NCBI GenBank assembly: GCA_050949085.1
Contig: JBMNFB010000009.1
Location: 130,379 to 194,378, forward strand
Direction: 5' to 3'
Source: Bacillota bacterium
GTDB taxonomy: Bacteria > Bacillota > UBA994 > UBA5500
Length of the DNA stretch: 64,000 nucleotides
Part shown: in pieces, positions 3,209-55,132 of the stretch
Layout of the letters: each line of letters starts with the position of its first letter
Position numbering within the stretch: position 1 is the first letter of the stretch
The notes under the pieces: generated by a model
The model's input: only the letters and a program-made list of their open reading frames with translations
What the model was told of the DNA's origin: nothing
Databases searched by the model: none
Program-made: the position numbers and the translations under genes

Positions 3209-3283
3209 TGGAGCGGAAAACGAGATTCGAACTCGCGACCCCCGCCTTGGCAAGGCGGTGCTCTACCGCTGAGCTATTTCCGC
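3209..3283 (-). tRNA. tRNA-Gly (anticodon GCC), CCA encoded
   Basis: Reverse complement reads GCGGAAATAGCTCAGCGGTAGAGCACCGCCTTGCCAAGGCGGGGGTCGCGAGTTCGAATCTCGTTTTCCGCTCCA. It folds into a cloverleaf with anticodon loop TTGCCAA. Confidence 0.85.
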
Positions 3284-3347
3284 TTTCTAGGCTTATTTTA
3301 GTACGGCCCGTCCCGAAAGTCAAGCCGTTTCCGGCTGTAAAGATCAG

Positions 3348-3424
3348 TGGCGCGCCCGGCAGGATTCGAACCTGCGACCACCGGATTCGTAGTCCGTTAC
3401 TCTATCCAGCTGAGCTACGGGCGC
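3348..3424 (-). tRNA. tRNA-Arg (anticodon ACG), CCA encoded
   Basis: Reverse complement reads GCGCCCGTAGCTCAGCTGGATAGAGTAACGGACTACGAATCCGGTGGTCGCAGGTTCGAATCCTGCCGGGCGCGCCA. Anticodon loop is CTACGAA. Confidence 0.8.
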
Positions 3425-3456
3425 GAGTTAGGAATGGGACGTGTCGGAAATAGAAA

Positions 3457-3533
<77 letters not shown>

Positions 3534-3585
3534 ATCCGATTTAGCAAAGAAGAAAACGCGGTTACCCCGCGTATATGAGACAAAT

Positions 3586-3663
3586 TGGGGTGGATGATGG
3601 GACTCGAACCCACGACCCCCAGAGCCACAATCTGATGCTCTATCCAACTGAGCTACATCCACC
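3586..3663 (-). tRNA. tRNA-His (anticodon GTG) with encoded G-1 and CCA
   Basis: Reverse complement reads GGTGGATGTAGCTCAGTTGGATAGAGCATCAGATTGTGGCTCTGGGGGTCGTGGGTTCGAGTCCCATCATCCACCCCA. Anticodon loop TTGTGGC. The extra 5' G is typical of tRNA-His. Confidence 0.8.
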
Positions 3664-3744
3664 ATGTCGTCCTTTCAGACGCAAGACTCATTTTAGCACA
3701 TCTCTGGCCTCGCCGCAAGAGGTGCACCACGGTTTGGAAAGGAA

Positions 3745-3821
<77 letters not shown>

Positions 3822-7756: not shown

Positions 7757-7974
7757 GAGAAAACCCTCCTCATGCTGACGGTTTCGTCAGGCGGTATTTA
7801 TATTATTCGGTTAATTCGCCAACCGGTGCCAGCGCTCCTTCCTGGATTTATCCGTTTTCCTGCCAGGAGGGGGTTGCCCTCTGCCAGAGTGAATACCCTT
7901 CTCGGCGCTGGGGATGCTGCCTCGCATGCGGCCGGGCGTCTGCCGTACCCCGGTAGCCTGCTGTCATCAAAGAG

Positions 7975-8013
7975 AACGGGACGGGGAAGCATGCTGCTCT
8001 TACCCCGTCCCGT
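7975..8013 (-). terminator. Hairpin terminator downstream of the MATE gene
   Basis: GGGACGGGG-(16 nt)-CCCCGTCCC stem immediately after the MATE stop codon. It shares the 13-mer AACGGGACGGGGA with the 374-bp repeat family. Confidence 0.5.
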
Positions 8014-8053
8014 CCGCAATGCAACTGCGAAATAGCGCCCCGCTTCCCCTAAC

Positions 8054-9618: not shown

Positions 9619-9663
9619 GTATTAAGGAGCTAGCGACGGCAGCTCGACTGACAAAACTGCATA

Positions 9664-9757
9664 TGCCACAGGGGAGGTCAATTGTTGATCTGAGAGGAAG
9701 CCAGGCTTCGACCCTTAAAACCTGATGCGGGTAATGCCGCCGTAGGGAGAGACTCTG
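9664..9757 (+). promoter_or_regulatory. TPP (thiamine pyrophosphate) riboswitch, THI element
   Basis: Contains GGGGAGG...CTGAGAGG...ACCC..AACCTGATGCGGGTAATGCCGCCGTAGGGAG. This matches the conserved THI-box core (CTGAGA / AACCTGATC-GGNTAATNCC-GCGTAGGGA). Confidence 0.85.
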
Positions 9758-9773
9758 TTTGATTTTGAGGGAA

Positions 9774-17814: not shown

Positions 17815-18765
17815 ACCGGCTATGCTCAGCCAGGGCACACCCCCTCCGGCGCTGGCGATGCCTCCAGAACTAAGGTATCAAGCGAAACGGGACGGGGAGC
17901 AGCAAAACTCGCCCGCCTAAGACCAGGATTTCTGGTCCTGAGTGACGCCCAGCAGTCTGGTGCACTATCTGGCACCGCCAGGCTCGGGGCGCTTAGGCGG
18001 ACTCAGACAGTTGCTGCATTTTCCCCCGTTCCGTTTCGCTTCTTGTCAACTGACGGCTAATCGCAAGGCACCTTCGCGGGTGATGCCCTGACTTTATCGC
18101 CACTTGCCTACTCCGGTGCAACAACCCTTTGTACCGCGTGACCGGCCACGGCCCTCTGCAGGAGCACAGAACTCAGCCGTGAGGAACGGTCGCTCGCCAG
18201 CCCCCAGGGCACACCCTCTCCGGCGCTGGCGATGCCTCCAGAACTAAGGTATCAAGCGAAACGGGACGGGGAGCAGCAAAACTCGCCCGCCTAAGACCAG
18301 GATTTCTGGTCCTGAGTGACGCCCAGCAGTCTGATGCACTATCAGGCACTGCCAGGCTCGGATTGCTTAGGCGAGCTCAGGCAGTTGCTGCATTTTCCCC
18401 CGTTCCGTTTCGCTTTTTGTCAACTGACGGCTAATCGCAAGGCACCTTCGCGGGTGATGCCCTGTCTTTATCGCCACTTGCCTACTCCGGTGCAATAACC
18501 CTTTGTACCGCGTGACCGGCCACGGCCCTCTGCAGGAGCACAGAACTCAGCCGTGAGGAACGGTCGCTCGCCAGCCCCCAGGGCACACCCTCTCCGGCGC
18601 TGGCGATGCCTCCAGAACTAGGGTATCAAGCGAAACGGGACGGGGAGCAGCAAAACTCGCCCGCCGAAGGCCAGGATTTCTGGTCCTGAGTGACGCCCAG
18701 CAGTCTGATGCACTACCTGGCACCGGCAGGCTCGGATCGCTTAGGCGAGCTCAGATAGTTGCTGC
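17815..18765. repeat. 374-bp tandem direct repeat, 2.5 copies, about 95% identity, non-coding
   Basis: Copies begin at 17831, 18205 and 18579 (exact period 374). The third copy is truncated after GTTGCTGC at 18765. Lies in the convergent intergenic region between dppA and the aminotransferase. Confidence 0.9.
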
Positions 18766-18917
18766 TAGAGCACGGCCGCGGGTACATAAGAGTTTGAGCA
18801 CAAAGAAGGGACGGGTGATCCAAAGGGTCTCCCGCCCCTTTCTGCTTTCCTCCAACGAAGGCTAACAGCGCGGCGGCCTGGCTGCGGAACGCTCGGCGGG
18901 GTGACAACCCCTGCGGC

Positions 18918-25775: not shown

Positions 25776-27749
25776 CTAGACGTAGCGGTTGAACCAGTCC
25801 AGAATGAAGTTCAGCCGATCGATGCGGTTACGTGGCTTGCCAGAGCGAGAGAGCTCGTGGTTCTCGCCGGCAAAGCGGACAAATTCCACCGTCTTGCCGA
25901 GGCGCTTCAGAGCAACATACCACTGCTCCGCCTGCTCCATCGGGCAACGGAAGTCCAGCTCGCTATGGATGATCAGGATCGGGGTCTTCACCTGGGGAGC
26001 ATAGCGGATCGGCGAGCGTGACATGATGAAGTCTTCCGAATCCCACAGATCGCGCCCGCCCATGCCGGCCTTGTTACCGTACCAGCCGATGTCGCTGCAG
26101 CCATACTTGGTGTACATGTTGCTGATACTGCGCAGCGTCACGGCTGCTTTGAAGCGATCGGTCTGGGTGACGATCCAGTTCGTCATGTAGCCGCCATAGC
26201 TGCCGCCGGTAACGCCCAGCCGCTCGGCGTCCACCCAGTCGAGCTGGATCGCGTAATCCACGGCGCTCATGCAATCGGCATAGTCCATGCCGCCCCAATC
26301 GCCAACGACGCCCTTGGTAAACTCTTCGCCGTAGCCCCTGCTACCGCGAGGATTCATGAAGAGTACGCCGTAACCGGCTGATGTCAGCATCTGAAACTCG
26401 TGGAAGAAGCCGTAACCATACGTGGAATGGGGGCCGCCGTGAATCTCCATGATCAGGGGATACTTCTTGCCTTCCTCGAAACCGACAGGTTTCATGATCC
26501 AGCCTTCCAGCGGTAGCCCATCGGTGCCCTGGAATTCAACTCGCTCGGGCACGGATAGCTGCCACTCAGCCAATATGTCGGCATTGACGGCAGTCAGCTG
26601 CTTGATGGCGCCAGGCTGCCAGAGATAGACATCGCCTGGATTTGTCACGTCGCCAGCGATATAGGCGATGCGATCCTCACCATCTACCGCTACATGGTGG
26701 AAGGCAGTGATGGCCAGATCGCCATGGGTAAGCTGCTCGATCTGCCTGGTCGCGACGTTTACCCGATAGAGGTGGCAAGTGCCGCCATCGGTGATGGACA
26801 CGATGAGATGCTGGCCATCCGCCGACCAGCAGGCCTTGGTGTTGCCACCGCCAAAGCGGGCATCGCTGCCGACGCTGCACCCGACAGAGCGGTCCATGGC
26901 CTCGGTCAGGTTGACGGCTTCTCCCCCCGCCAACGGCATTACCCAGAGGTCGGTATTGGCGTAGCCAATCTGTCCCTTAACATGCCCGAAGAAAGCGATC
27001 CACTGGCCATCTGGAGAGCAGACCGGATTGGTGGCTGTGCCCTCGCCGGCGGTAAGCCGCCGCAGGTTGTCGCCAGTGAGGTCAATCACATGGATGTCTG
27101 GAATCATTCGCAGCTCGCAGTCGGGCGAGATACAGGCCGAGAACAGCAGCTGCTGGCTATCGCTGGTCCAGTTGATGCCGGAAACGTCAAAGTCCCCTTT
27201 GGTTACCTGCCGCACGCTGCTATCGCTGGTATCCAGCACGTAGAGATGGCGGCGGCGGGTATCGGTGAAGCCCCTGCCGTTGAACTTGTAGCGCAGATGG
27301 GTGATATGGCGCACGTCGGGGTTCTTGTCCTTTTCAGCGGCTTCGTCCCGCGGATCGGTGCTGGTGAAGGCTATGTACCGGCCGTCCGGCGACCAGGTCG
27401 GTTCGCCGACACCCTCCGGCATCTTCGTCAGTTGCACTGCCTCGCCACCCAGATCGTCCAGCGCAAACAGCTGGGGCCGGCCGTTGCGGTTGGAGACAAA
27501 GAGCAGCTTCCGCCCATCTGGTGACCAGCGCGGGCTGGTTTCCCTGACCAGGCCGCCATCGCTGCGCTGCCCGTAGGTAAAGCGGCGCCTCTCCCCCTGT
27601 GGGGTCTCCACCCAGATGGCAGAGCTATAGCCGTTCTTCTCCAGATTGCTCTCGGTGATCACGTAGGCGATGCGCCCGTCAACCGAGAGGGCTGGATCAC
27701 TGACAAAACGCAAGGCAGTGATATCTCGAGCTACAACTTTTCGCTTCAT
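25776..27749 (-). CDS. S9 family peptidase (acylaminoacyl-peptidase / prolyl oligopeptidase-like with N-terminal beta-propeller)
   Basis: WSPDG propeller repeats. C-terminal alpha/beta hydrolase with GGSYGGYM (GxSxG) followed by Asp and His. Confidence 0.85.
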   Translation of the reverse strand: MKRKVVARDITALRFVSDPALSVDGRIAYVITESNLEKNGYSSAIWVETPQGERRRFTYGQRSDGGLVRETSPRWSPDGRKLLFVSNRNGRPQLFALDDLGGEAVQLTKMPEGVGEPTWSPDGRYIAFTSTDPRDEAAEKDKNPDVRHITHLRYKFNGRGFTDTRRRHLYVLDTSDSSVRQVTKGDFDVSGINWTSDSQQLLFSACISPDCELRMIPDIHVIDLTGDNLRRLTAGEGTATNPVCSPDGQWIAFFGHVKGQIGYANTDLWVMPLAGGEAVNLTEAMDRSVGCSVGSDARFGGGNTKACWSADGQHLIVSITDGGTCHLYRVNVATRQIEQLTHGDLAITAFHHVAVDGEDRIAYIAGDVTNPGDVYLWQPGAIKQLTAVNADILAEWQLSVPERVEFQGTDGLPLEGWIMKPVGFEEGKKYPLIMEIHGGPHSTYGYGFFHEFQMLTSAGYGVLFMNPRGSRGYGEEFTKGVVGDWGGMDYADCMSAVDYAIQLDWVDAERLGVTGGSYGGYMTNWIVTQTDRFKAAVTLRSISNMYTKYGCSDIGWYGNKAGMGGRDLWDSEDFIMSRSPIRYAPQVKTPILIIHSELDFRCPMEQAEQWYVALKRLGKTVEFVRFAGENHELSRSGKPRNRIDRLNFILDWFNRYV

Positions 27750-33971: not shown

Positions 33972-35993
33972 TTAGTCCTCTTTAGCCTGCGGAATATACT
34001 TATCCATCCAGTCGACGATGGCATTCAGCCGCGCGATGCGCAGTGAAGGCCGGCCGCTGCGGGAGAGCTCATGCGTGCTGTTCGGGAAGCGCAGCAGCTG
34101 GGTCGTCTTGCCCAGTTTCTTCAGGTAGACGTAGAGCTGCTCTGCCTGCTCGATCGGGCAACGCAGGTCTTCCTCGCCGTGGATGATTAGCAGCGGGGTC
34201 TCGACGTTCTTGACATAGGTCAACGGTGAGCGCTTGATCATCTCCTCCGGGTCATCCCACGGCGTGGCGTTATGCTCGTTCTCGGTGAAGGTGGCACCGA
34301 TATCGGCAGCGCCGGTGAAGCTGAACCAGTTGGAGATACTGCGCTGAGTGACGGCGGCCTTGAAGCGATTGGTATGGCCGACAATCCAGTTGGTCATGAA
34401 CCCGCCGTAGCTGCCACCGGTGACGCCGAGGCGGTCTCCATCAACATAGTCCACGTTCTCCAGCACCCAATCCATCGCGTTCATCAGATCCTCATAATCC
34501 TTACCGCCGTAATCGCCGCGGCAGGCATCGACAAACTGCTGACCATAGCCATGGCTGCCGCGCGGGTTGGTGAAGATGACAACATAGCCGCGGGAGCAGA
34601 GCAGCTGGAACTCGAAGAAGAAGCTGTCGCCAAACATGGTGTGAGGGCCGCCATGGATCTCGAGGACTGCCGGATACTTCTTGCCCGGTTCGAAATTGAT
34701 CGGCTTCATGATCCAGCCCTGGACATTCCAGTCATCAACGCTCTTGAAGTTGAATTCCTCGGGCGTGCTCAGGGCGACGCTGTTCAGGAACTGATCGTTG
34801 GCTTCGGTCAGGCGAACACTCTCGTGGCTTATCAGGTCATAGCAGTACAGCTCACCGGGAGAGAGAGGCTCGCTGAGGGCCAGAGCCACCCGCTTGCCCT
34901 CGTTATCCATGGTAAACCCATAGATGGCACCCTTCAGCTGGCTGACCTGCTCAACCGGACCGCCAGCAGCCGGGAAACGCCAGAGGTTGGCATAGCCGTG
35001 GTCGGCCGCCGCAAAGTAGATGTAGCCGTTGGTGGCCCAGATTGGCGACATCGAGCCGCCGCCCATCCGCGAGTCAGTGTTGGCCGTAGCACCCACCGGC
35101 AGCTCCATGTCAGGAGTCAGGCAGGTAGCTTCGCCGCCGTCGCGGGACATGCGGTAGAACTTGGGCAGAGTGGCTCCCTTGTACTCACTCTGGTGATAGA
35201 GGTAAACAAGATCCTTGCCGTCTAGCGACCAGAGCGCACCGCGCACCGCACCGTCGCTCTTGGTCAGTTTGACCAGTTCGCCGCCGGCCGCAGGCATGAT
35301 GTACAGGTCGGAGATATTGGGGTGGTTTTCCGGGTTCTCGAGGCGATTGGATGTGAAGGCGATATACTCACCGCAGGGGGACCAGACGGGCGCACCAACG
35401 CGATAGTCGCCGCTGGTGAGCTGCTTGGCTTCCTTGGTCTCCACATCGATGACCCAGATCTGGTTGTTCCGCTTGGGCAGGAGGCCCACGCCATTCATCT
35501 TGTAGTGGAGCCGATCGACGACGTACGGCTTATCTGCCCGTTCCTTGCTCATCTTCTCCCGGTCAGCCTTACTGAGCTCCTTGGTCAGCTCCTCAGGCTT
35601 ATCCTCGGGGGCGACGGCGCTCATGAACATGATCTTCCTGCCGTCGGGTGACCACTGCGGGTTACCGGCACCCCAGCGCATCGTCGTCAGCTGTTCGGCC
35701 TCACCAAAACCTTCGCGCAGCAGCCAGATCTGGCGCGAGCCGCTGCGGTCGGTGACGAACGCCAGGGTCTTGCCGTCCGGCGACCAGGTGGGAGAGCTCC
35801 CGCCGCTGGTCAGGCGCTGGCGGCGCTTGTCGTCGGTGCCTACCAGATAGAGTTCGCCCCTGTAAGTGCGGGTCTTCTCGTCAATGTACGTCTGCACATA
35901 GGCCACTTTCTTGCCATCGGGAGACATCTGGGGATCGGAGACAAACTTCAGTTGGAGCAAGTCTTCTGCTACTACTGGTCTCTTCAACGTCAT
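33972..35993 (-). CDS. S9 family peptidase (paralog of 25776..27749)
   Basis: Same architecture as the other S9 gene (WSPDG propeller, GGSYGGFM catalytic Ser) at about 45% identity to it. Confidence 0.85.
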   Translation of the reverse strand: MTLKRPVVAEDLLQLKFVSDPQMSPDGKKVAYVQTYIDEKTRTYRGELYLVGTDDKRRQRLTSGGSSPTWSPDGKTLAFVTDRSGSRQIWLLREGFGEAEQLTTMRWGAGNPQWSPDGRKIMFMSAVAPEDKPEELTKELSKADREKMSKERADKPYVVDRLHYKMNGVGLLPKRNNQIWVIDVETKEAKQLTSGDYRVGAPVWSPCGEYIAFTSNRLENPENHPNISDLYIMPAAGGELVKLTKSDGAVRGALWSLDGKDLVYLYHQSEYKGATLPKFYRMSRDGGEATCLTPDMELPVGATANTDSRMGGGSMSPIWATNGYIYFAAADHGYANLWRFPAAGGPVEQVSQLKGAIYGFTMDNEGKRVALALSEPLSPGELYCYDLISHESVRLTEANDQFLNSVALSTPEEFNFKSVDDWNVQGWIMKPINFEPGKKYPAVLEIHGGPHTMFGDSFFFEFQLLCSRGYVVIFTNPRGSHGYGQQFVDACRGDYGGKDYEDLMNAMDWVLENVDYVDGDRLGVTGGSYGGFMTNWIVGHTNRFKAAVTQRSISNWFSFTGAADIGATFTENEHNATPWDDPEEMIKRSPLTYVKNVETPLLIIHGEEDLRCPIEQAEQLYVYLKKLGKTTQLLRFPNSTHELSRSGRPSLRIARLNAIVDWMDKYIPQAKED

Positions 35994-47840: not shown

Positions 47841-50546
47841 TCAGCGGAGCAGGCTGCGCCGAACAAGCTTGGTCAGTTCGCCAAATAACAGGGGCAAGAG
47901 GCCCATCAGGAGCACCGGTTTCAGGTCATGCCACTGCAGCTGGGCAACGCTAAACACCTGGCGCAGGGCGGGAACACCCATGATCAGGAGTAGCAGAACC
48001 AGAGAACCCAGGGTGGCGAAGTTCATTTGGCGGTTGCTGAAGAGTCCAATCTCAGCGATGGTATACCTCGCTGAACGCGCCGTATAGGCACGCAGCAATT
48101 CGCTGAGCGTCAAGGTCACAAACGCGTAGGTGCGACCGACCCCCAGGCCATACCGTTGCCAGCCAATATAGTAAGCGGCGAGGACGGCAACTGTCATCAC
48201 GACACTCTGGATGCCGATGTTCAGAAACATGTCGCGATTGATGATCGATTGGGTGGCAGAACGGGGTCGCTCATCCATGAGACCAGGCTCCTTCTTTTCC
48301 ACACCGAGAGCCAGCGCCGGGAGCGCGTCGGTCAGCAGGTTGATCCACAGCAGGTGGATAGGCAGCAGCGGGATCGGCCAGTTGAGCAGCATGGAGATAA
48401 AGATAACCAGTATCTCACCCACATTACACGACAGGAGGAAGAAGACAAACTTGCGAATGTTGCTGAAGATCACCCGGCCTTCTTCCACTGCGGCAACGAT
48501 GCTGGCAAAGTTGTCGTCGGTAAGGATCATTTCGGCCGTTTCCTTCGTGACGTCGGTGCCGGTAATGCCCATGGCAATGCCGATGTCGGCACGCTTCAGT
48601 GCCGGGGCATCGTTGACGCCGTCCCCGGTCATCGCCGCGATCTCCCCGTTGTTCTTCAACGCCTGCACGATGGTGACCTTGTGTTCGGGGGAAACGCGGG
48701 CATAGACGTTGACCGTCCGCACGGCTTCGTCGATCTCGGTCTCGCTCATCTGGTTCAGCTCAGCTCCGGCCAGAACCTGATCTTCGGCCGTGATAATCCC
48801 CAGTTGACGGGCAATGGCGGCAGCCGTATCGCGATAGTCACCCGTGATCATGACGACGCGAATGCCGGCAGACTTACACACCTTGATAGCATCAATGGCT
48901 TCTGGCCGCGGTGGGTCGATCATGCCCACCAGCCCGCAAAAGACCAGATCCTGTTCGTCCGCTTCGCTGGAAGGATGTTCTGGAATTGCATCCAGCGGCT
49001 TGAACGCCATAGCCAGTACCCGGTAAGCCTGGGCGGCCAGGGTGCTGTTTTCCTTGAGAATTGCCTCGACATCTGACGGGGTGATCTGCCCGATCTTCCC
49101 ATCGCGCCGCATGATTCGCGTACAACGCTCGATAAGGACATCAGGGGCCCCCTTGGTCGCGGCCATAAACCGGCTCTCACCGTCAGTATGGAATGTGGTC
49201 ATCAGCTTGCGCCCTGAATCAAACGGCAGTTCCTGGAGGCGCGGCTTCTCGTTGTGGAGCTGCTCCCGGTGGATTCCAACTTTGGCAGCAGCGACAATCA
49301 TCGCCGCCTCAGTGGGGTCACCGTAGACGCACCATTCTTCCGCTCCATGTTCCAGGCTGCGCTCCAGCCGCGCATCGTTGCACAACGCCCCGATTTCCAG
49401 CAGGCGGCAGATGGCCGGCTCATGGGCCAGATCCAGCATGCGCTTCTCGGCTGTCAGGGCACCAATCGGCTTATATCCATCTCCCTGTACATCGATCTCC
49501 AGACCGGGGATATACATCTTGACAATGGTCATCTGGTTCTGGGTCAGCGTTCCGGTCTTATCCGAGCAGATGACGGTCGCGCTCCCCAGCGTCTCCACCG
49601 CATGCAGCTTCTTCACTATCGCGTGCTGCTGCGCCATGCGCTGCATACCCAGGGCCAGCACGATGGTGACGACCGCCGGCAACCCCTCAGGGATAGCCGC
49701 CACCGCCAGGCTAACAGCCGTCATGAATATCTCCAGGGCTGGTTGACCGCGCAGCAGGCCCAGGAAGAACACTATTGTACAAATCGCTAGGCACCCAGTC
49801 CCCAGGAACTTGCCCAGCTCGGCCAGCCTCCTCTGCAGAGGAGTAGTTTCGTCCTCCCCTTCCTGCAGCATCTCCGCTATCCTGCCGATGACGGTGTTCA
49901 TTCCAGTCGCCGTAACGATGGCCATACCGCGCCCATATGTGACCAGCGTGCTCATGAATGCGCTGTTAATCTGATCGCCCAGGCCCACGTCACCTTCCAG
50001 CCGGGCCTCGGCATCCTTCTCCACCGGAACCGACTCGCCCGTCAAGGCGGCTTCCTCGATTTTCAGATTCACGGACGAGATCAGCCGCACATCGGCCGGA
50101 ACATAGTCGCCTGTCTCCAGCACAACAACATCGCCCGGGACAAGCTCGACAGCAGGGACTTCCTGCTGCACCCCGTTGCGCAGGACTGTGGCGTTCGGGG
50201 CCGATAGTCGCCTCAGTGCCTCCAGCGCCTGACTGGCCCGGTACTCCTGAAACACTCCCAGGCCGGCGTTAATGATCACGATGAGGATGATCACCAGGGA
50301 GTCGGTCACCTCACCCAGGAGCATCGATACCAGGCTGGCCACAAACAGAATGATCACCATGTAGTCTTTCAGTTGGGACAGGAACATCTGAAAAACGCCG
50401 GGGCCAGCCTTACGGATCAGTTCGTTGGGGCCGTATTGCTCCAGACGGCGACGGGCCTCGTCGGGGGAGAGCCCTTGATCAACCCTGGTTCCCAGAGCCT
50501 GGCTCACTTCTGCTACGCTGCGCTGATACCATGGAACCTGCTGCAT
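47841..50546 (-). CDS. P-type cation-transporting ATPase, Ca2+-type (P2, YloB/PMCA-SERCA-like)
   Basis: 901 aa with DKTGTLTQNQM phosphorylation motif, TGDGVNDAPALKRADIGIAMG hinge and 10 TM segments with the PEGL motif. Confidence 0.88.
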   Translation of the reverse strand: MQQVPWYQRSVAEVSQALGTRVDQGLSPDEARRRLEQYGPNELIRKAGPGVFQMFLSQLKDYMVIILFVASLVSMLLGEVTDSLVIILIVIINAGLGVFQEYRASQALEALRRLSAPNATVLRNGVQQEVPAVELVPGDVVVLETGDYVPADVRLISSVNLKIEEAALTGESVPVEKDAEARLEGDVGLGDQINSAFMSTLVTYGRGMAIVTATGMNTVIGRIAEMLQEGEDETTPLQRRLAELGKFLGTGCLAICTIVFFLGLLRGQPALEIFMTAVSLAVAAIPEGLPAVVTIVLALGMQRMAQQHAIVKKLHAVETLGSATVICSDKTGTLTQNQMTIVKMYIPGLEIDVQGDGYKPIGALTAEKRMLDLAHEPAICRLLEIGALCNDARLERSLEHGAEEWCVYGDPTEAAMIVAAAKVGIHREQLHNEKPRLQELPFDSGRKLMTTFHTDGESRFMAATKGAPDVLIERCTRIMRRDGKIGQITPSDVEAILKENSTLAAQAYRVLAMAFKPLDAIPEHPSSEADEQDLVFCGLVGMIDPPRPEAIDAIKVCKSAGIRVVMITGDYRDTAAAIARQLGIITAEDQVLAGAELNQMSETEIDEAVRTVNVYARVSPEHKVTIVQALKNNGEIAAMTGDGVNDAPALKRADIGIAMGITGTDVTKETAEMILTDDNFASIVAAVEEGRVIFSNIRKFVFFLLSCNVGEILVIFISMLLNWPIPLLPIHLLWINLLTDALPALALGVEKKEPGLMDERPRSATQSIINRDMFLNIGIQSVVMTVAVLAAYYIGWQRYGLGVGRTYAFVTLTLSELLRAYTARSARYTIAEIGLFSNRQMNFATLGSLVLLLLIMGVPALRQVFSVAQLQWHDLKPVLLMGLLPLLFGELTKLVRRSLLR

Positions 50547-50981
50547 CTACACGCCCTCTCTCCTGCCTGCTAATAGTTGAGGACAGAAGCAGAACTGCCT
50601 GGCGCCTGTCAAATCTCTGCTCCAGCCCACTACTAAACTTATCCTGAATGCTTGCTGACTATTTCTAGCGGGCAGTATCGTCTGCTTTCGGTCCAGGCTC
50701 CACCCAGAGGAAACCGGCCATGGTCGCTCAGGGTACCATCCGCTGTCTGGCGGCGAACATCGTCTTCTTTGGCTCGGGGCTGTTGCACTAGCAGGAGTTC
50801 CTTAGTCAGGGCGCGCCGCTTCGTGCGCGTCGATGTCTCCAGAATTGATGTACCAAGCGAAACGCGATAGAGAGCAGCAAAAATCGCCCAACAAGACAAG
50901 AGCATTGGGTACCCAGCCCAAGGGTCGGGTCCCTGCCGCCGTATCCCAGCAGGGCACAGTGGATGGGCTTGCGACAGCCCC

Positions 50982-51674
50982 TTACTCGGTGGGAGCCAGT
51001 GTCTCCAGGCCGCTTCTGTCCTTGATGACGATCCCTCGGTGCCCCTGCAGCTGAATCAGCCCTTCATCCTGGAAGGCCGCCAACTTGCGACTCAGCGTTT
51101 CCTGACTCATGCCCAGCTGCGAAGCCAGGTCGCGCTTGCTCATCTCCAGGGAGAAACGCCGTCGGCCAGCGGCCAGGGTTAGCAGACGCTGGGCTAGCCT
51201 CTCTTCGACGGTGTGCAGATTGATCTCCTCGATCAGCTTTTCCGCCGTCTCCAGGCGCCGGCTCAAGGCCTCCATCACTTTCAGCGCGATGGAAGGATTG
51301 CCCGCCAGGAGCTGTTTCAGCCGCTCACCCTCAATTATGCACATGGTTGTCTGCTCCAGGGCCTCGGCATTGTCAGTCCGCGCCAGCGGGCTGAACAGAG
51401 AAAACTCCCCTATGAACTCACCGGGGCCAAGCACTCTGATCACCTGTTCCTTTCCGGCCGGACTGACGCGGGTGATCTTTACCTTTCCTACGTGGATCAC
51501 ATAGAGCCTCTCGTCCCTGTCCCCGGCCAGATAGATCATCTCCCCCTTCTGATAGGTTCTGGCACGGGTAATGGCGGCTATCTCGCGCATCTCTTCCTCG
51601 GTGACATTACTGAAGATAGGCACCATCTGAATGCAGTTGGCAGGTGACTCGTGACCACAGCTCATGTTACTCAT
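50982..51674 (-). CDS. Crp/Fnr family transcriptional regulator
   Basis: cNMP-binding beta-barrel plus a C-terminal HTH (RDLASQLGMSQETLSRKLAAFQDEGLI). Start MSNMSCGH after GGGGAGGGG. N-terminal Cys residues could indicate redox or metal sensing. Confidence 0.8.
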   Translation of the reverse strand: MSNMSCGHESPANCIQMVPIFSNVTEEEMREIAAITRARTYQKGEMIYLAGDRDERLYVIHVGKVKITRVSPAGKEQVIRVLGPGEFIGEFSLFSPLARTDNAEALEQTTMCIIEGERLKQLLAGNPSIALKVMEALSRRLETAEKLIEEINLHTVEERLAQRLLTLAAGRRRFSLEMSKRDLASQLGMSQETLSRKLAAFQDEGLIQLQGHRGIVIKDRSGLETLAPTE

Positions 51675-51761
51675 CCAAAACCCCTCCCCACGCAAACAAA
51701 TCCAGCTGAAATCCTTCACCTGGATTTGTTCACTCAGATTATTTCTCCTCAGTCAGATGGA

Positions 51762-55002: not shown

Positions 55003-55132
55003 GCCCTGCAGGAAACGCGCCTGATGGGGTGTGCCCTGCCCCGTCCTGAGATTCACTTCCAGAAAAAAACCCACTGTAACCCGGGAGGGAAACAGTGGGT
55101 TTGTTCATTGCTACAGCCCGAATAGATCCATC

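What the first reader, a model, noticed from the sequence alone, without database searches (positions are those of the whole stretch)
50833..50900. Diverged copy of the repeat's core motif in the 435-nt intergenic region upstream of the Ca-ATPase gene
CTCCAGAATTGATGTACCAAGCGAAACGCGATAGAGAGCAGCAAAAATCGCCCAACAAGACAAG at 50835-50898 aligns with the repeat segment CTCCAGAACTAAGGTATCAAGCGAAACGGGACGGGGAGCAGCAAAACTCGCCCGCCTAAGACCAG, at roughly 75% identity. Many differences fall at third-codon positions of a short ATG-initiated frame (MPPELRYQAKRDGEQQNSPA in the repeat versus MSPELMYQAKRDREQQKSPN here). Neither copy has a ribosome-binding site, so translation is doubtful. A third, shorter relative (AACGGGACGGGGA in a local hairpin) forms the MATE gene terminator at 7975-8013. 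Together these point to a dispersed family of small structured elements sharing a core of about 60 nt.
Basis: seen in the sequence. Interest (0 to 1): 0.55.

Follow-up and report, generated by a model that had tools for sequence, protein, structure and literature searches.

The report
Orphan half of a palindromic repeat
The segment upstream of the calcium-pump gene is a real but broken copy, the left half only, of a lineage-specific family of long hairpin-forming intergenic repeats in an uncultured digester bacterium, and it most likely does nothing and encodes no peptide.

Summary
The similarity is real. Window 50807-50898 matches the first ~90 nt of the 374-bp tandem unit at 17830-18765 (77-80% identity, blastn E 1e-13 to 1e-15).

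The shared "core" is not a 60-nt element. It is the left arm of a long imperfect palindrome of 155-260 bp that folds into one rod-like hairpin.
- Complete copies are W1 and W2 in the window, plus L026 and L028a on contigs of the same organism.
- Their left end (CAGGGCACACCC) pairs with their right end (GGGTGATGCCCTG).
- 48 pairs are predicted and 6-8 of them show compensatory double changes.

The copy upstream of the ATPase has no apical part, no right arm and no complementary partner. It shows no excess folding and is the most diverged copy, so it is a solo left arm and most likely a decayed relic. Two other solo left arms exist (W3, L028b).

The peptide frame is not conserved and has no protein homologues.

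There is no Rfam match, no copy in GTDB representative genomes, no transposase nearby and no target-site duplication. Verdict: a new family of a known kind (MITE/REPIN/ERIC-like palindromic repeats), of modest interest.

The parts
50807..50898 (+). Solo left arm of the palindromic repeat. It holds the left terminus (CAGGGCGCGCC), the internal-loop segment, the 5' strand of the main stem (AAGCGAAACGCGATAGAGA, 50855-50873), the 5' strand of the upper stem (GCAGCAA, 50874-80) and the first ~15 nt of the apical region. The right arm is absent.
   Evidence: blastn E 1e-13 to 1e-15. Model R1, built without this copy, gives E 1.9e-4. There is no homology or complementary partner downstream. Fold z = 0.22. 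Identity to every other copy is 74-81%, the lowest in the family.
50778..50806 (+). A 28-nt left-flank extension shared only with copy L026 (GGCTG..GCA.TAGCAG.AG....TTAG).
   Evidence: Local alignment scores 14, against a null of 7.1 +/- 1.3 with maximum 12 in 300 shuffles. nhmmer envelope 50778-50889.
17831..18090 (+). Complete palindromic element W1 (260 nt, long apical region), the first unit of the tandem array.
   Evidence: TRF: period 374, 2.5 copies, 95% matches. Rod-like fold, plus strand -131.7 and minus strand -138.9 kcal/mol.
18091..18204 (+). Spacer amplified together with the element. It is not conserved in other family members.
   Evidence: The W2 right flank against the L026 right flank scores at chance level.
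18205..18464 (+). Complete palindromic element W2 (260 nt).
   Evidence: Fold z = -7.0. 48 consensus pairs, 6 of them compensatory.
18579..18765 (+). W3, a truncated copy with left arm and apical region only. It ends after GTTGCTGC and lacks the lower 3' strand and the right module.
   Evidence: Alignments. R1 matches only the 5' module.
7884..8045 (+). Diverged family member of the short-hairpin type. It has the left module at 7884-7917, a ~48-nt insertion, the core ATCAAAGAGAACGGGACGGGGA at 7966-7987, and the hairpin CGGGACGGGG/CCCCGTCCCG within 7976-8013. It lies between the MATE gene's 3' end (8054) and the racemase gene's start (7756).
   Evidence: Collinear alignment scores 27.4, against shuffles of 11.3 +/- 1.9 with maximum 19.8. 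R1 gives E 0.021. The same hit appears in two other assemblies.
55015..55040 (-). Possible 26-nt fragment of the left terminus (GCAGGGCACACCCCATCAGGCGCG) just after a terminator. The evidence is weak.
   Evidence: blastn E 0.18, nhmmer E 0.27, R1 E 0.23. Sequence read.
47841..50546 (-). P-type Ca2+-ATPase gene. Its start codon lies 232 nt from the element. This is context, not part of the element.
   Evidence: Pfam hits Cation_ATPase_N, E1-E2_ATPase and Cation_ATPase_C.
50982..51719 (-). Crp/Fnr-family regulator gene. Its stop codon lies 84 nt from the truncated side of the element. This is context.
   Evidence: Pfam hits cNMP_binding and HTH_Crp_2.

Best explanation
The segment at 50778/50807-50898 is an orphan left arm of a lineage-specific family of long imperfect-palindrome intergenic repeats. 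Complete members are 155-260 bp.

In a complete member, the left half pairs with the right half from the termini (CAGGGCACACCC with GGGTGATGCCCTG) to the apex. This gives a rod-like hairpin with a large asymmetric internal loop and an apical region of variable length.

**Inferred history.** Copies were scattered into intergenic regions by a past transposition-like process (inferred). They have since decayed by internal deletions of the kind long palindromes suffer (inferred from the different apical deletions in each copy). Where two copies lay side by side, unequal recombination amplified them into the 374-bp tandem array (inferred).

**The copy upstream of the ATPase.** It has lost its apical region and right arm, so it cannot form the hairpin. 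It is the most diverged member. It most probably has no function of its own and does not encode a peptide.
For: **Shown:**
- The homology is significant.
- The complete copies fold as single rods: z = -7.0, -5.5 and -3.9.
- The consensus structure has 48 pairs, with 95.8% of cells paired against 35-45% when partners are slid. Six pairs have changes on both sides, against 0-1 in the slid controls and 1 of 500 shuffles.
- Two more compensatory pairs lie at the very termini: CA...TG in W and L026 versus GT...AC in L028a.
- Family members lie at three loci in the window. Two further loci sit on contigs from a metagenome that also holds a 99.96% copy of the window. Those two contigs have the same tetranucleotide signature as the window (r = 0.94-0.96).
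- The 50.8-kb copy has no right arm: no downstream homology, no complementary partner within ~500 nt, and fold z = 0.22.
- It is 74-81% identical to the others, which are 79-89% identical among themselves, leaving aside the near-identical tandem units W1-W3.
- Different copies carry different internal deletions (alignments).
- Array copy number differs among assemblies: 0.5, 1.5 and 2.5.
- No Rfam family matches at either threshold.
- The coding reading is rejected.
Against: - Mobility is not demonstrated. No target-site duplication flanks L026, L028a or W1/W2. No transposase lies in the ~90 kb available. No empty site could be examined, because only one strain-level population is in the databases.
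- All three truncated copies keep the same (left) arm and no solo right arm was seen. Random decay does not predict this, so the left arm could carry a function or mark a directional copying mechanism.
- The compensatory changes show that pairing is maintained in complete copies, so the family as a whole is not simply junk.
- Only three independent complete sequences support the structure.
Confidence: 0.72

Rival explanations
1. The left arm is a functional module in its own right, for example the seed or body of a small RNA family or a protein-binding site. On this reading the 50.8-kb copy is a working paralogue that acts on, or is read with, the Crp-ATPase region.
For: - Three independent solo left arms (W3, L028b, the 50.8-kb copy) and no solo right arm.
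- The unpaired internal-loop segment AAGGTATCA is invariant in W, L026 and L028a, while the opposite side of the loop varies.
- In all five loci the element's right side faces the 3' end of a gene on the opposite strand.
- The minus strand folds 6-9 kcal/mol better than the plus strand in every complete copy.
Against: - No promoter-like site on either strand at any locus. Terminator-like signals are inconsistent.
- The 50.8-kb copy is the most diverged, including in the loop segment (GATGTACCA).
- G-U and A-C mismatches are about equally frequent, so no strand is clearly favoured.
- n = 3-5 is too small for the orientation and arm biases to be decisive.
Confidence: 0.15
2. The shared segment encodes a small protein (MPPELRYQAKRDGEQQNSPA and relatives).
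For: - The frame is open through YQAKR..EQQ in W, L026, L028a, the 50.8-kb copy and 7888.
- 6 of 10 differences between W2 and the 50.8-kb copy are at third positions, and 4 of 8 changed codons are synonymous.
Against: - No Shine-Dalgarno sequence.
- In L028a the ATG is in another frame and meets a stop after 3 codons. L028b has no ATG and carries frameshifts.
- ORF lengths are 20, 57, 73 and 47 aa with unrelated C-termini.
- Homology continues at similar identity for 27-55 nt upstream of the ATG.
- The 'synonymous' changes CGG>CGA (L026) and the non-synonymous GAC>TAC (L028a) are both compensated in the opposite hairpin strand.
- A profile of the peptides finds nothing among 5.8 billion predicted proteins. 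Pfam finds nothing.
- No gene caller annotated it in any assembly.
Confidence: 0.03
3. The resemblance is chance similarity or low-complexity GC-rich sequence.
For: None beyond the short length.
Against: - E 1e-13 to 1e-15 within the window.
- Independent-model E 1.9e-4.
- 0 of 100 shuffles reach the motif count.
- Further members exist elsewhere.
Confidence: 0.01

Closest known systems
MITEs (miniature inverted-repeat transposable elements) of bacteria, e.g. Correia, RUP, bcr1 (reviewed in PMC3184786)
   Same: - Small, non-coding and multi-copy.
- Confined to intergenic regions.
- Have terminal inverted repeats.
- The whole element can fold into a long stem-loop.
- Copies are diverged and often truncated.
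- The termini begin CAGGG, as do the inverted repeats of the ISAs1 family (PMC11946415). This is a lead only.
   Different: - No target-site duplication at three complete copies. ISAs1 makes 8-10-bp duplications.
- No cognate transposase seen.
- The terminal bases themselves co-vary between copies (CA/TG versus GT/AC), which fits a pairing constraint better than a fixed transposase-binding sequence.
- Palindromy runs through the whole element, not only the ends.
REPINs / REP sequences mobilised by RAYT transposases (PMC3116915; PMC3733652)
   Same: - Intergenic hairpin-forming repeats whose pairing is preserved.
- Recognised as single-stranded hairpins.
- No target-site duplication.
- Occur singly and in clusters.
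   Different: - REP units are 20-40 bp and REPINs about 70-110 bp, carrying a GTAG or CGTC tag at one end (PMC3733652). These elements are 155-260 bp with no conserved tag: GACG/CGTC occurs inside the stem in some copies only.
- No RAYT gene could be looked for in the rest of the genome.
ERIC / IRU elements of enterobacteria (from general knowledge)
   Same: - Imperfect palindromes of more than 100 bp in transcribed intergenic regions.
- Size variants are created by internal insertions and deletions.
- Mobility has never been shown.
   Different: - Different phylum (Bacillota versus Proteobacteria).
- No sequence relationship was tested or is expected.
- ERIC is about 127 bp.
6S RNA (Rfam RF00013)
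   Same: A rod of about 150-200 nt with a closing stem, a large central internal loop and a terminal stem.
   Different: - No match to the Rfam model even at E <= 10.
- Multi-copy, with truncated copies and a tandem array.
- No promoter.

Membership tests
MITE | Small (under ~500 bp) and without coding capacity | tested here: met
   Elements are 155-260 bp. No frame has a conserved start and stop. No protein hits.
MITE | Terminal inverted repeats | tested here: met
   CAGGGCACACCC pairs with GGGTGATGCCCTG. Helix 1 has 10 pairs and 97.5% of cells paired.
MITE | Target-site duplication flanking the element | tested here: not met
   No direct repeat of 6 nt or more in the 15 nt either side of L026 (605-759), L028a (1493-1729) or W1/W2. 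Sequences read.
MITE | Several dispersed copies in one genome | tested here: met
   Three loci in the window plus L026 and L028, which have the same composition as the window.
MITE | A cognate autonomous IS with the same ends, and insertion polymorphism (empty sites) | not testable with these tools
   No transposase in the window. The rest of the genome could not be scanned. All assemblies are one strain-level population.
REP / REPIN | REP units of 20-40 bp in inverted pairs, with a GTAG or CGTC tag at one end (PMC3733652) | tested here: not met
   By inspection of the sequences there is no GTAG. GACG/CGTC lies inside the stem in W, L026 and 7888 but not in L028a or the 50.8-kb copy. Element size is 155-260 bp.
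REP / REPIN | A RAYT (Y1 transposase) gene in the genome | not testable with these tools
   Only ~90 kb of the genome was accessible.
Any Rfam RNA family (including 6S RNA, ribozymes, riboswitches) | Score at or above the family's gathering threshold | tested here: not met
   No hit at the gathering threshold. Only noise-level miRNA-type hairpin hits at E up to 10.
Small protein gene | Conserved start, stop, frame and ribosome-binding site across copies, plus homologues | tested here: not met
Intrinsic terminator | GC-rich hairpin directly followed by a U tract | tested here: inconclusive
   The plus strand has a T-rich tail after the main stem in W2, L026 and L028a but not at 7976-8013. After the whole rod, W1, W2 and L026 have a T-rich tail (TCTTT, TCTTTT) but L028a does not (CTCTCC). 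The scanner flags only L026. The 50.8-kb copy has no hairpin at all.

The most novel reading that the evidence does not exclude
The rods could be a previously undescribed hairpin-dependent genetic element, or a structured RNA, whose copying starts at one fixed end.

- Every truncated copy (three of three) keeps the same arm.
- All five loci share one orientation relative to the neighbouring gene.
- Pairing is kept right to the terminal bases by compensatory change.
- The minus strand folds better.

Together these would fit one-ended, single-strand (rolling-circle or Y1-type) or reverse-transcription-mediated propagation that leaves 5'-truncated copies. On that reading the 50.8-kb half-element is an abortive copy rather than a deletion product.
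Probability: 0.12. Interest if true: 0.6.

Novelty: new member of a known kind. Interest (0 to 1): 0.3.

Why it matters
Practically, it removes a false lead. The 20-aa frame should not be annotated as a gene, and the ATPase upstream region holds a repeat relic rather than a regulatory RNA.

More generally, it documents a new family of long palindromic intergenic repeats in a deep-branching, uncultured spore-forming Bacillota lineage from anaerobic digesters. ClpP has no relative at 90% identity or above, and the nearest ATPase homologue is 73% identical.

The family explains why short-read assemblies of this organism break or collapse at 17.8-18.8 kb. With its compensatory changes and one-sided truncations, it would be a usable system for asking how palindromic repeats are copied and maintained, once a complete genome is available.

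Tried and rejected
1. **Peptide family.** A profile of five translated copies against 5.8 billion proteins gave 0 hits at E <= 10. Pfam gave nothing. A six-frame comparison shows no conserved ORF on either strand, including the hydrophobic minus-strand tail VLLLPVPFRLIP that I considered as a type I toxin.

2. **Known RNA families.** Rfam found nothing at the gathering threshold or at E <= 10 over all four loci. That covers 6S RNA, ribozymes and riboswitches.

3. **Related genomes.** An exact-pattern scan of 185,579 GTDB representative genomes gave 16 hits, all taxonomically scattered. None extends beyond the seeded pattern, so they are chance hits. The viral contigs gave 0 hits.

4. **Orthologous-locus comparison.** The nearest ATPase homologues are 73% identical or less and not syntenic. 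Their loci hold no family member.

5. **Hidden right arm for the 50.8-kb copy.** The faint resemblance of 51010-51040 to the right module lies inside the Crp coding sequence and is at chance level.

6. **Extension of homology into the 108-nt array spacer.** Chance level.

7. **Promoter and terminator scans.** Nothing consistent at the five loci.

8. **Extending the sequence.** 8.4 kb beyond the window start and 1.4 kb beyond its end held no further copies.

9. **Integron attC, CRISPR, retron and viroid-like multimer readings.** Rejected on anatomy: no R boxes, a period that is too long, no RT or integrase, and a spacer that is not conserved.

Full report
**Observation**

The ATG is at 50833.
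- The string is 80% identical (52 of 65 columns) to the repeat string at 17862 and 18236.
- blastn of one 374-bp unit against the window recovers 50807-50889 at 77% over 84 nt, E 9e-14. The reverse query gives E 1.4e-15.
- The 11-mer CAAGCGAAACG occurs six times against 0.92 expected.
- A covariance model built without this copy still detects it (24.8 bits, E 1.9e-4).

The similarity is therefore real, and it begins 27 nt upstream of the ATG. "The repeat" is a 374-bp tandem array of 2.5 copies at 17830-18765. It lies between the convergent M55 D-aminopeptidase and aminotransferase genes. The 50.8-kb copy lies between the stop of a Crp/Fnr-family gene (50982) and the start of a P-type Ca-ATPase (50546), both on the minus strand.

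**More members**

The source is an uncultured "Bacillota bacterium" MAG from anaerobic digesters. It is a spore former (spore photoproduct lyase, GerM-type domain). It has no close relatives: ClpP is alone in its 90% cluster, and the nearest ATPase is 73% identical.
- An exact-pattern scan of GTDB representative genomes returned only scattered chance hits. Viral contigs returned none.
- The metagenome scan returned three contigs from one GenBank metagenome.
  - L021 is the window's own array at 99.96% identity.
  - L026 and L028 are new loci. Their tetranucleotide composition matches the window (r = 0.96 and 0.94, against 0.58-0.81 for unrelated GC-rich loci).
- L026 carries one short copy. 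L028 carries one long copy followed 27 nt later by a diverged partial copy.

**What the family is**

- In W1 and W2, AAGCGAAACGGGACGGGGA pairs with CCCCCGTTCCGTTTCGCTT about 140 nt downstream.
- In L026 the same stem closes over a 20-nt loop.

The rest of the left module also pairs with the sequence that follows the stem. The left terminus CAGGGCACACCC is the inverted repeat of GGGTGATGCCCTG. GCGATGCC pairs with GGCTAATCGC.

Each complete copy folds into a single rod:
- W2 z = -7.0, L026 z = -5.5, L028a z = -3.9.
- Coordinates are W1 17831-18090, W2 18205-18464, L026 605-759 and L028a 1493-1729.

RNAalifold on the four complete copies, with apical interiors removed, predicts 48 pairs, six of them with changes on both sides.
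- On that structure 95.8% of cells pair, against 35-45% when partners are slid by 1-3 columns.
- Six pairs have double changes, against 0-1 in the slid controls. Only 1 of 500 shuffles reaches the observed values.
- Two further compensatory pairs lie at the very termini: CA...TG in W and L026, GT...AC in L028a.

Only three of the sequences are independent, so this is good but not overwhelming support.

Both strands fold as rods. The minus strand is 6-9 kcal/mol more stable in every copy. G-U and A-C cells are about equally frequent on the plus strand, so the transcribed strand, if there is one, is undecided.

The element ends at the right terminus.
- The 108-nt remainder of the 374-bp unit is not conserved in L026. 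The array is therefore (element + spacer) x 2 plus a truncated element.
- The apical regions differ by deletions. W and L028a share CCAGGCTCG(G)ATTGCT. L026 and the 7.9-kb copy have lost most of the apex in different ways.

**The copy in question**

Downstream of 50898 there is no homology to any apical region, 3' stem strand or right module. No sequence within about 500 nt is complementary to the left arm. The region folds no better than shuffles (z = 0.22).

The faint resemblance at 51010-51040 lies inside the Crp coding sequence, whose C-terminus reads ...GIVIKDRSGLETLAPTE. It is at chance level.

This copy is the most diverged: 74-81% identical to all others, which are 79-89% identical to one another once the near-identical tandem units W1-W3 are left aside. 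It shares a 28-nt left-flank extension with L026 only (50778-50805). It shares the start of a W-type apical region (AAGACAAG versus AAGACCAGG).

It is therefore a solo left arm. Two other solo left arms exist:
- W3 (18579-18765), which stops after GTTGCTGC.
- L028b (1757-1832).

No solo right arm was found in the window or in the extra ~10 kb obtained beyond its ends.

**The third relative**

Taken alone, the 13-mer at 7975-7987 is unimpressive (blastn E 1.6). The locus as a whole is a different matter.
- It carries the left module (7884-7917, ACCCTTCTCGGCGCTGGGGATGC), then a ~48-nt insertion.
- Then comes the core, followed by a near-perfect short hairpin whose 3' side resembles L026 (CTCTTACCCCGTCCCGT versus CTCTTACTCCCGTCTCGT).
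- The collinear alignment scores 27.4, against 11.3 +/- 1.9 (maximum 19.8) in 300 shuffles.
- The independent model gives E 0.021.

It is a genuine, diverged member, not merely the MATE terminator.

**Coding**

- There is no Shine-Dalgarno sequence.
- In L028a the ATG is in another frame and is followed by a stop after three codons. L028b has ATT instead of ATG and frameshifts. ORF lengths are 20, 57, 73 and 47 aa.
- A profile of the peptides finds nothing in 5.8 billion proteins. No assembly's gene caller annotated it.
- Third-position differences are 6 of 10 (P = 0.077; 7 of 10 against L026, P = 0.02, not independent and uncorrected for six frames).
- The changes inside the stem are matched by changes on the opposite strand, whether synonymous or not.

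I reject the peptide. The minus-strand tail (LLLPVPFRLIP) likewise has no conserved start.

**Mechanism**

*Shown:* this is a dispersed, lineage-specific family of long imperfect palindromes whose pairing is preserved. The 50.8-kb copy is a half-element that cannot pair.

*Inferred:*
- Copies spread by a transposition-like process and then decayed through deletions, to which long palindromes are prone.
- Side-by-side copies (a complete one followed by a partial one, as also seen in L028) allowed unequal recombination to build the 374-bp array.
- This fits the 0.5, 1.5 and 2.5-copy states in different assemblies, although assembly collapse cannot be excluded. L030 has an N gap, L029 is a patchwork, and many short-read contigs end 81 nt after the peptidase gene.

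*Not shown:* mobility.
- There is no target-site duplication.
- There is no transposase in the window.
- No empty sites could be examined.

The termini begin CAGGG, as do ISAs1-family inverted repeats (PMC11946415). But ISAs1 makes 8-10-bp duplications, which are absent here, and the terminal bases co-vary between copies. That looks more like a hairpin constraint, as in REP/RAYT or IS200/IS605 substrates, than a fixed binding sequence.

Promoter and terminator scans give nothing consistent.

Three regularities remain unexplained on small numbers:
- All truncated copies keep the left arm (3 of 3).
- In all five loci the right side of the element faces the 3' end of a gene on the opposite strand.
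- All three window loci have the same orientation on a strand with uniformly negative GC skew.

These keep alive a directional-copying or functional-left-arm reading, at roughly 10-15%.

**Comparison and verdict**

By architecture this belongs with bacterial MITEs, REPINs and ERIC-type elements (PMC3184786, PMC3116915, PMC3733652).
- It meets the size, non-coding, inverted-repeat and multi-copy criteria of MITEs.
- It fails the target-site-duplication test.
- It fails the REP size and tag criteria.
- It matches no Rfam family, including 6S RNA, whose rod-with-central-loop shape it superficially recalls.

It is a new family of a known kind. The specific finding, the 50.8-kb segment, is best read as an inert orphan arm. 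Interest is modest.

Noticed in passing
window 17830-18765; L029, L030, L031, L037: The tandem array has 2.5 units in the window, 1.5 in L031 and 0.5 in L037. L029 has a patchwork first unit and L030 has an N gap. Four Logan contigs end 81 nt after the peptidase gene. This is either real copy-number polymorphism or collapse of the repeat in short-read assemblies.
   Followed up: partly
window 55015-55040 (-): GCAGGGCACACCCCATCAGGCGCG resembles the family's left terminus (about 22 of 26 bases). It sits just after the terminator of the DUF2087/GerE-type gene. E is about 0.2-0.3 by three methods, so it is either a tiny fragment or chance.
   Followed up: partly
window 18808-18849: Imperfect hairpin GGGACGGGTGATCC / GGGTCTCCCGCCCC, flanked by AAAGAA and TTTCTGCTTTCC. 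It is a likely bidirectional terminator between the array and the aminotransferase gene, and it also contains the GGGACGGG motif. The consensus scanner does not flag it.
   Followed up: no
window 9660-9765 (+): TPP riboswitch (74.7 bits) directly upstream of an ABC transporter operon with an NMT1/ThiY-like binding protein.
   Followed up: no
window 3209-3821 (-): Cluster of five tRNA genes: Gly-GCC, Arg-ACG, Arg-TCG, His-GTG, Arg-TCT.
   Followed up: no
window 50778-50805 and L026 575-603: The 50.8-kb copy and L026 share 28 nt to the left of the CAGGG terminus that other copies lack. Either a subfamily has a longer left end, or one copy was duplicated together with its flank.
   Followed up: partly
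left flanks of all copies (window 50802-50806, 17826-17830, 7879-7883; L026 600-604; L028 1488-1492): A TTAG/TAAG/TCAG-like tetranucleotide lies 1-3 nt before the left terminus in most copies (CTTAGT|CAGGG, ATTAGGC|CAGGG, GTAAGGT|GGG, CTCAGC|CAGGG). It could be a target preference or part of the element.
   Followed up: no
window 25776-27749 and 33972-35993; L026 4305-4771: Two paralogous S9 prolyl-oligopeptidase genes lie in the window. L026 holds a further stretch 65-71% identical at DNA level to both.
   Followed up: no
whole window: GC skew is negative in every 8-kb bin of the plus strand, so the plus strand is probably the lagging strand throughout. All three family loci in the window have the same orientation.
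   Followed up: partly
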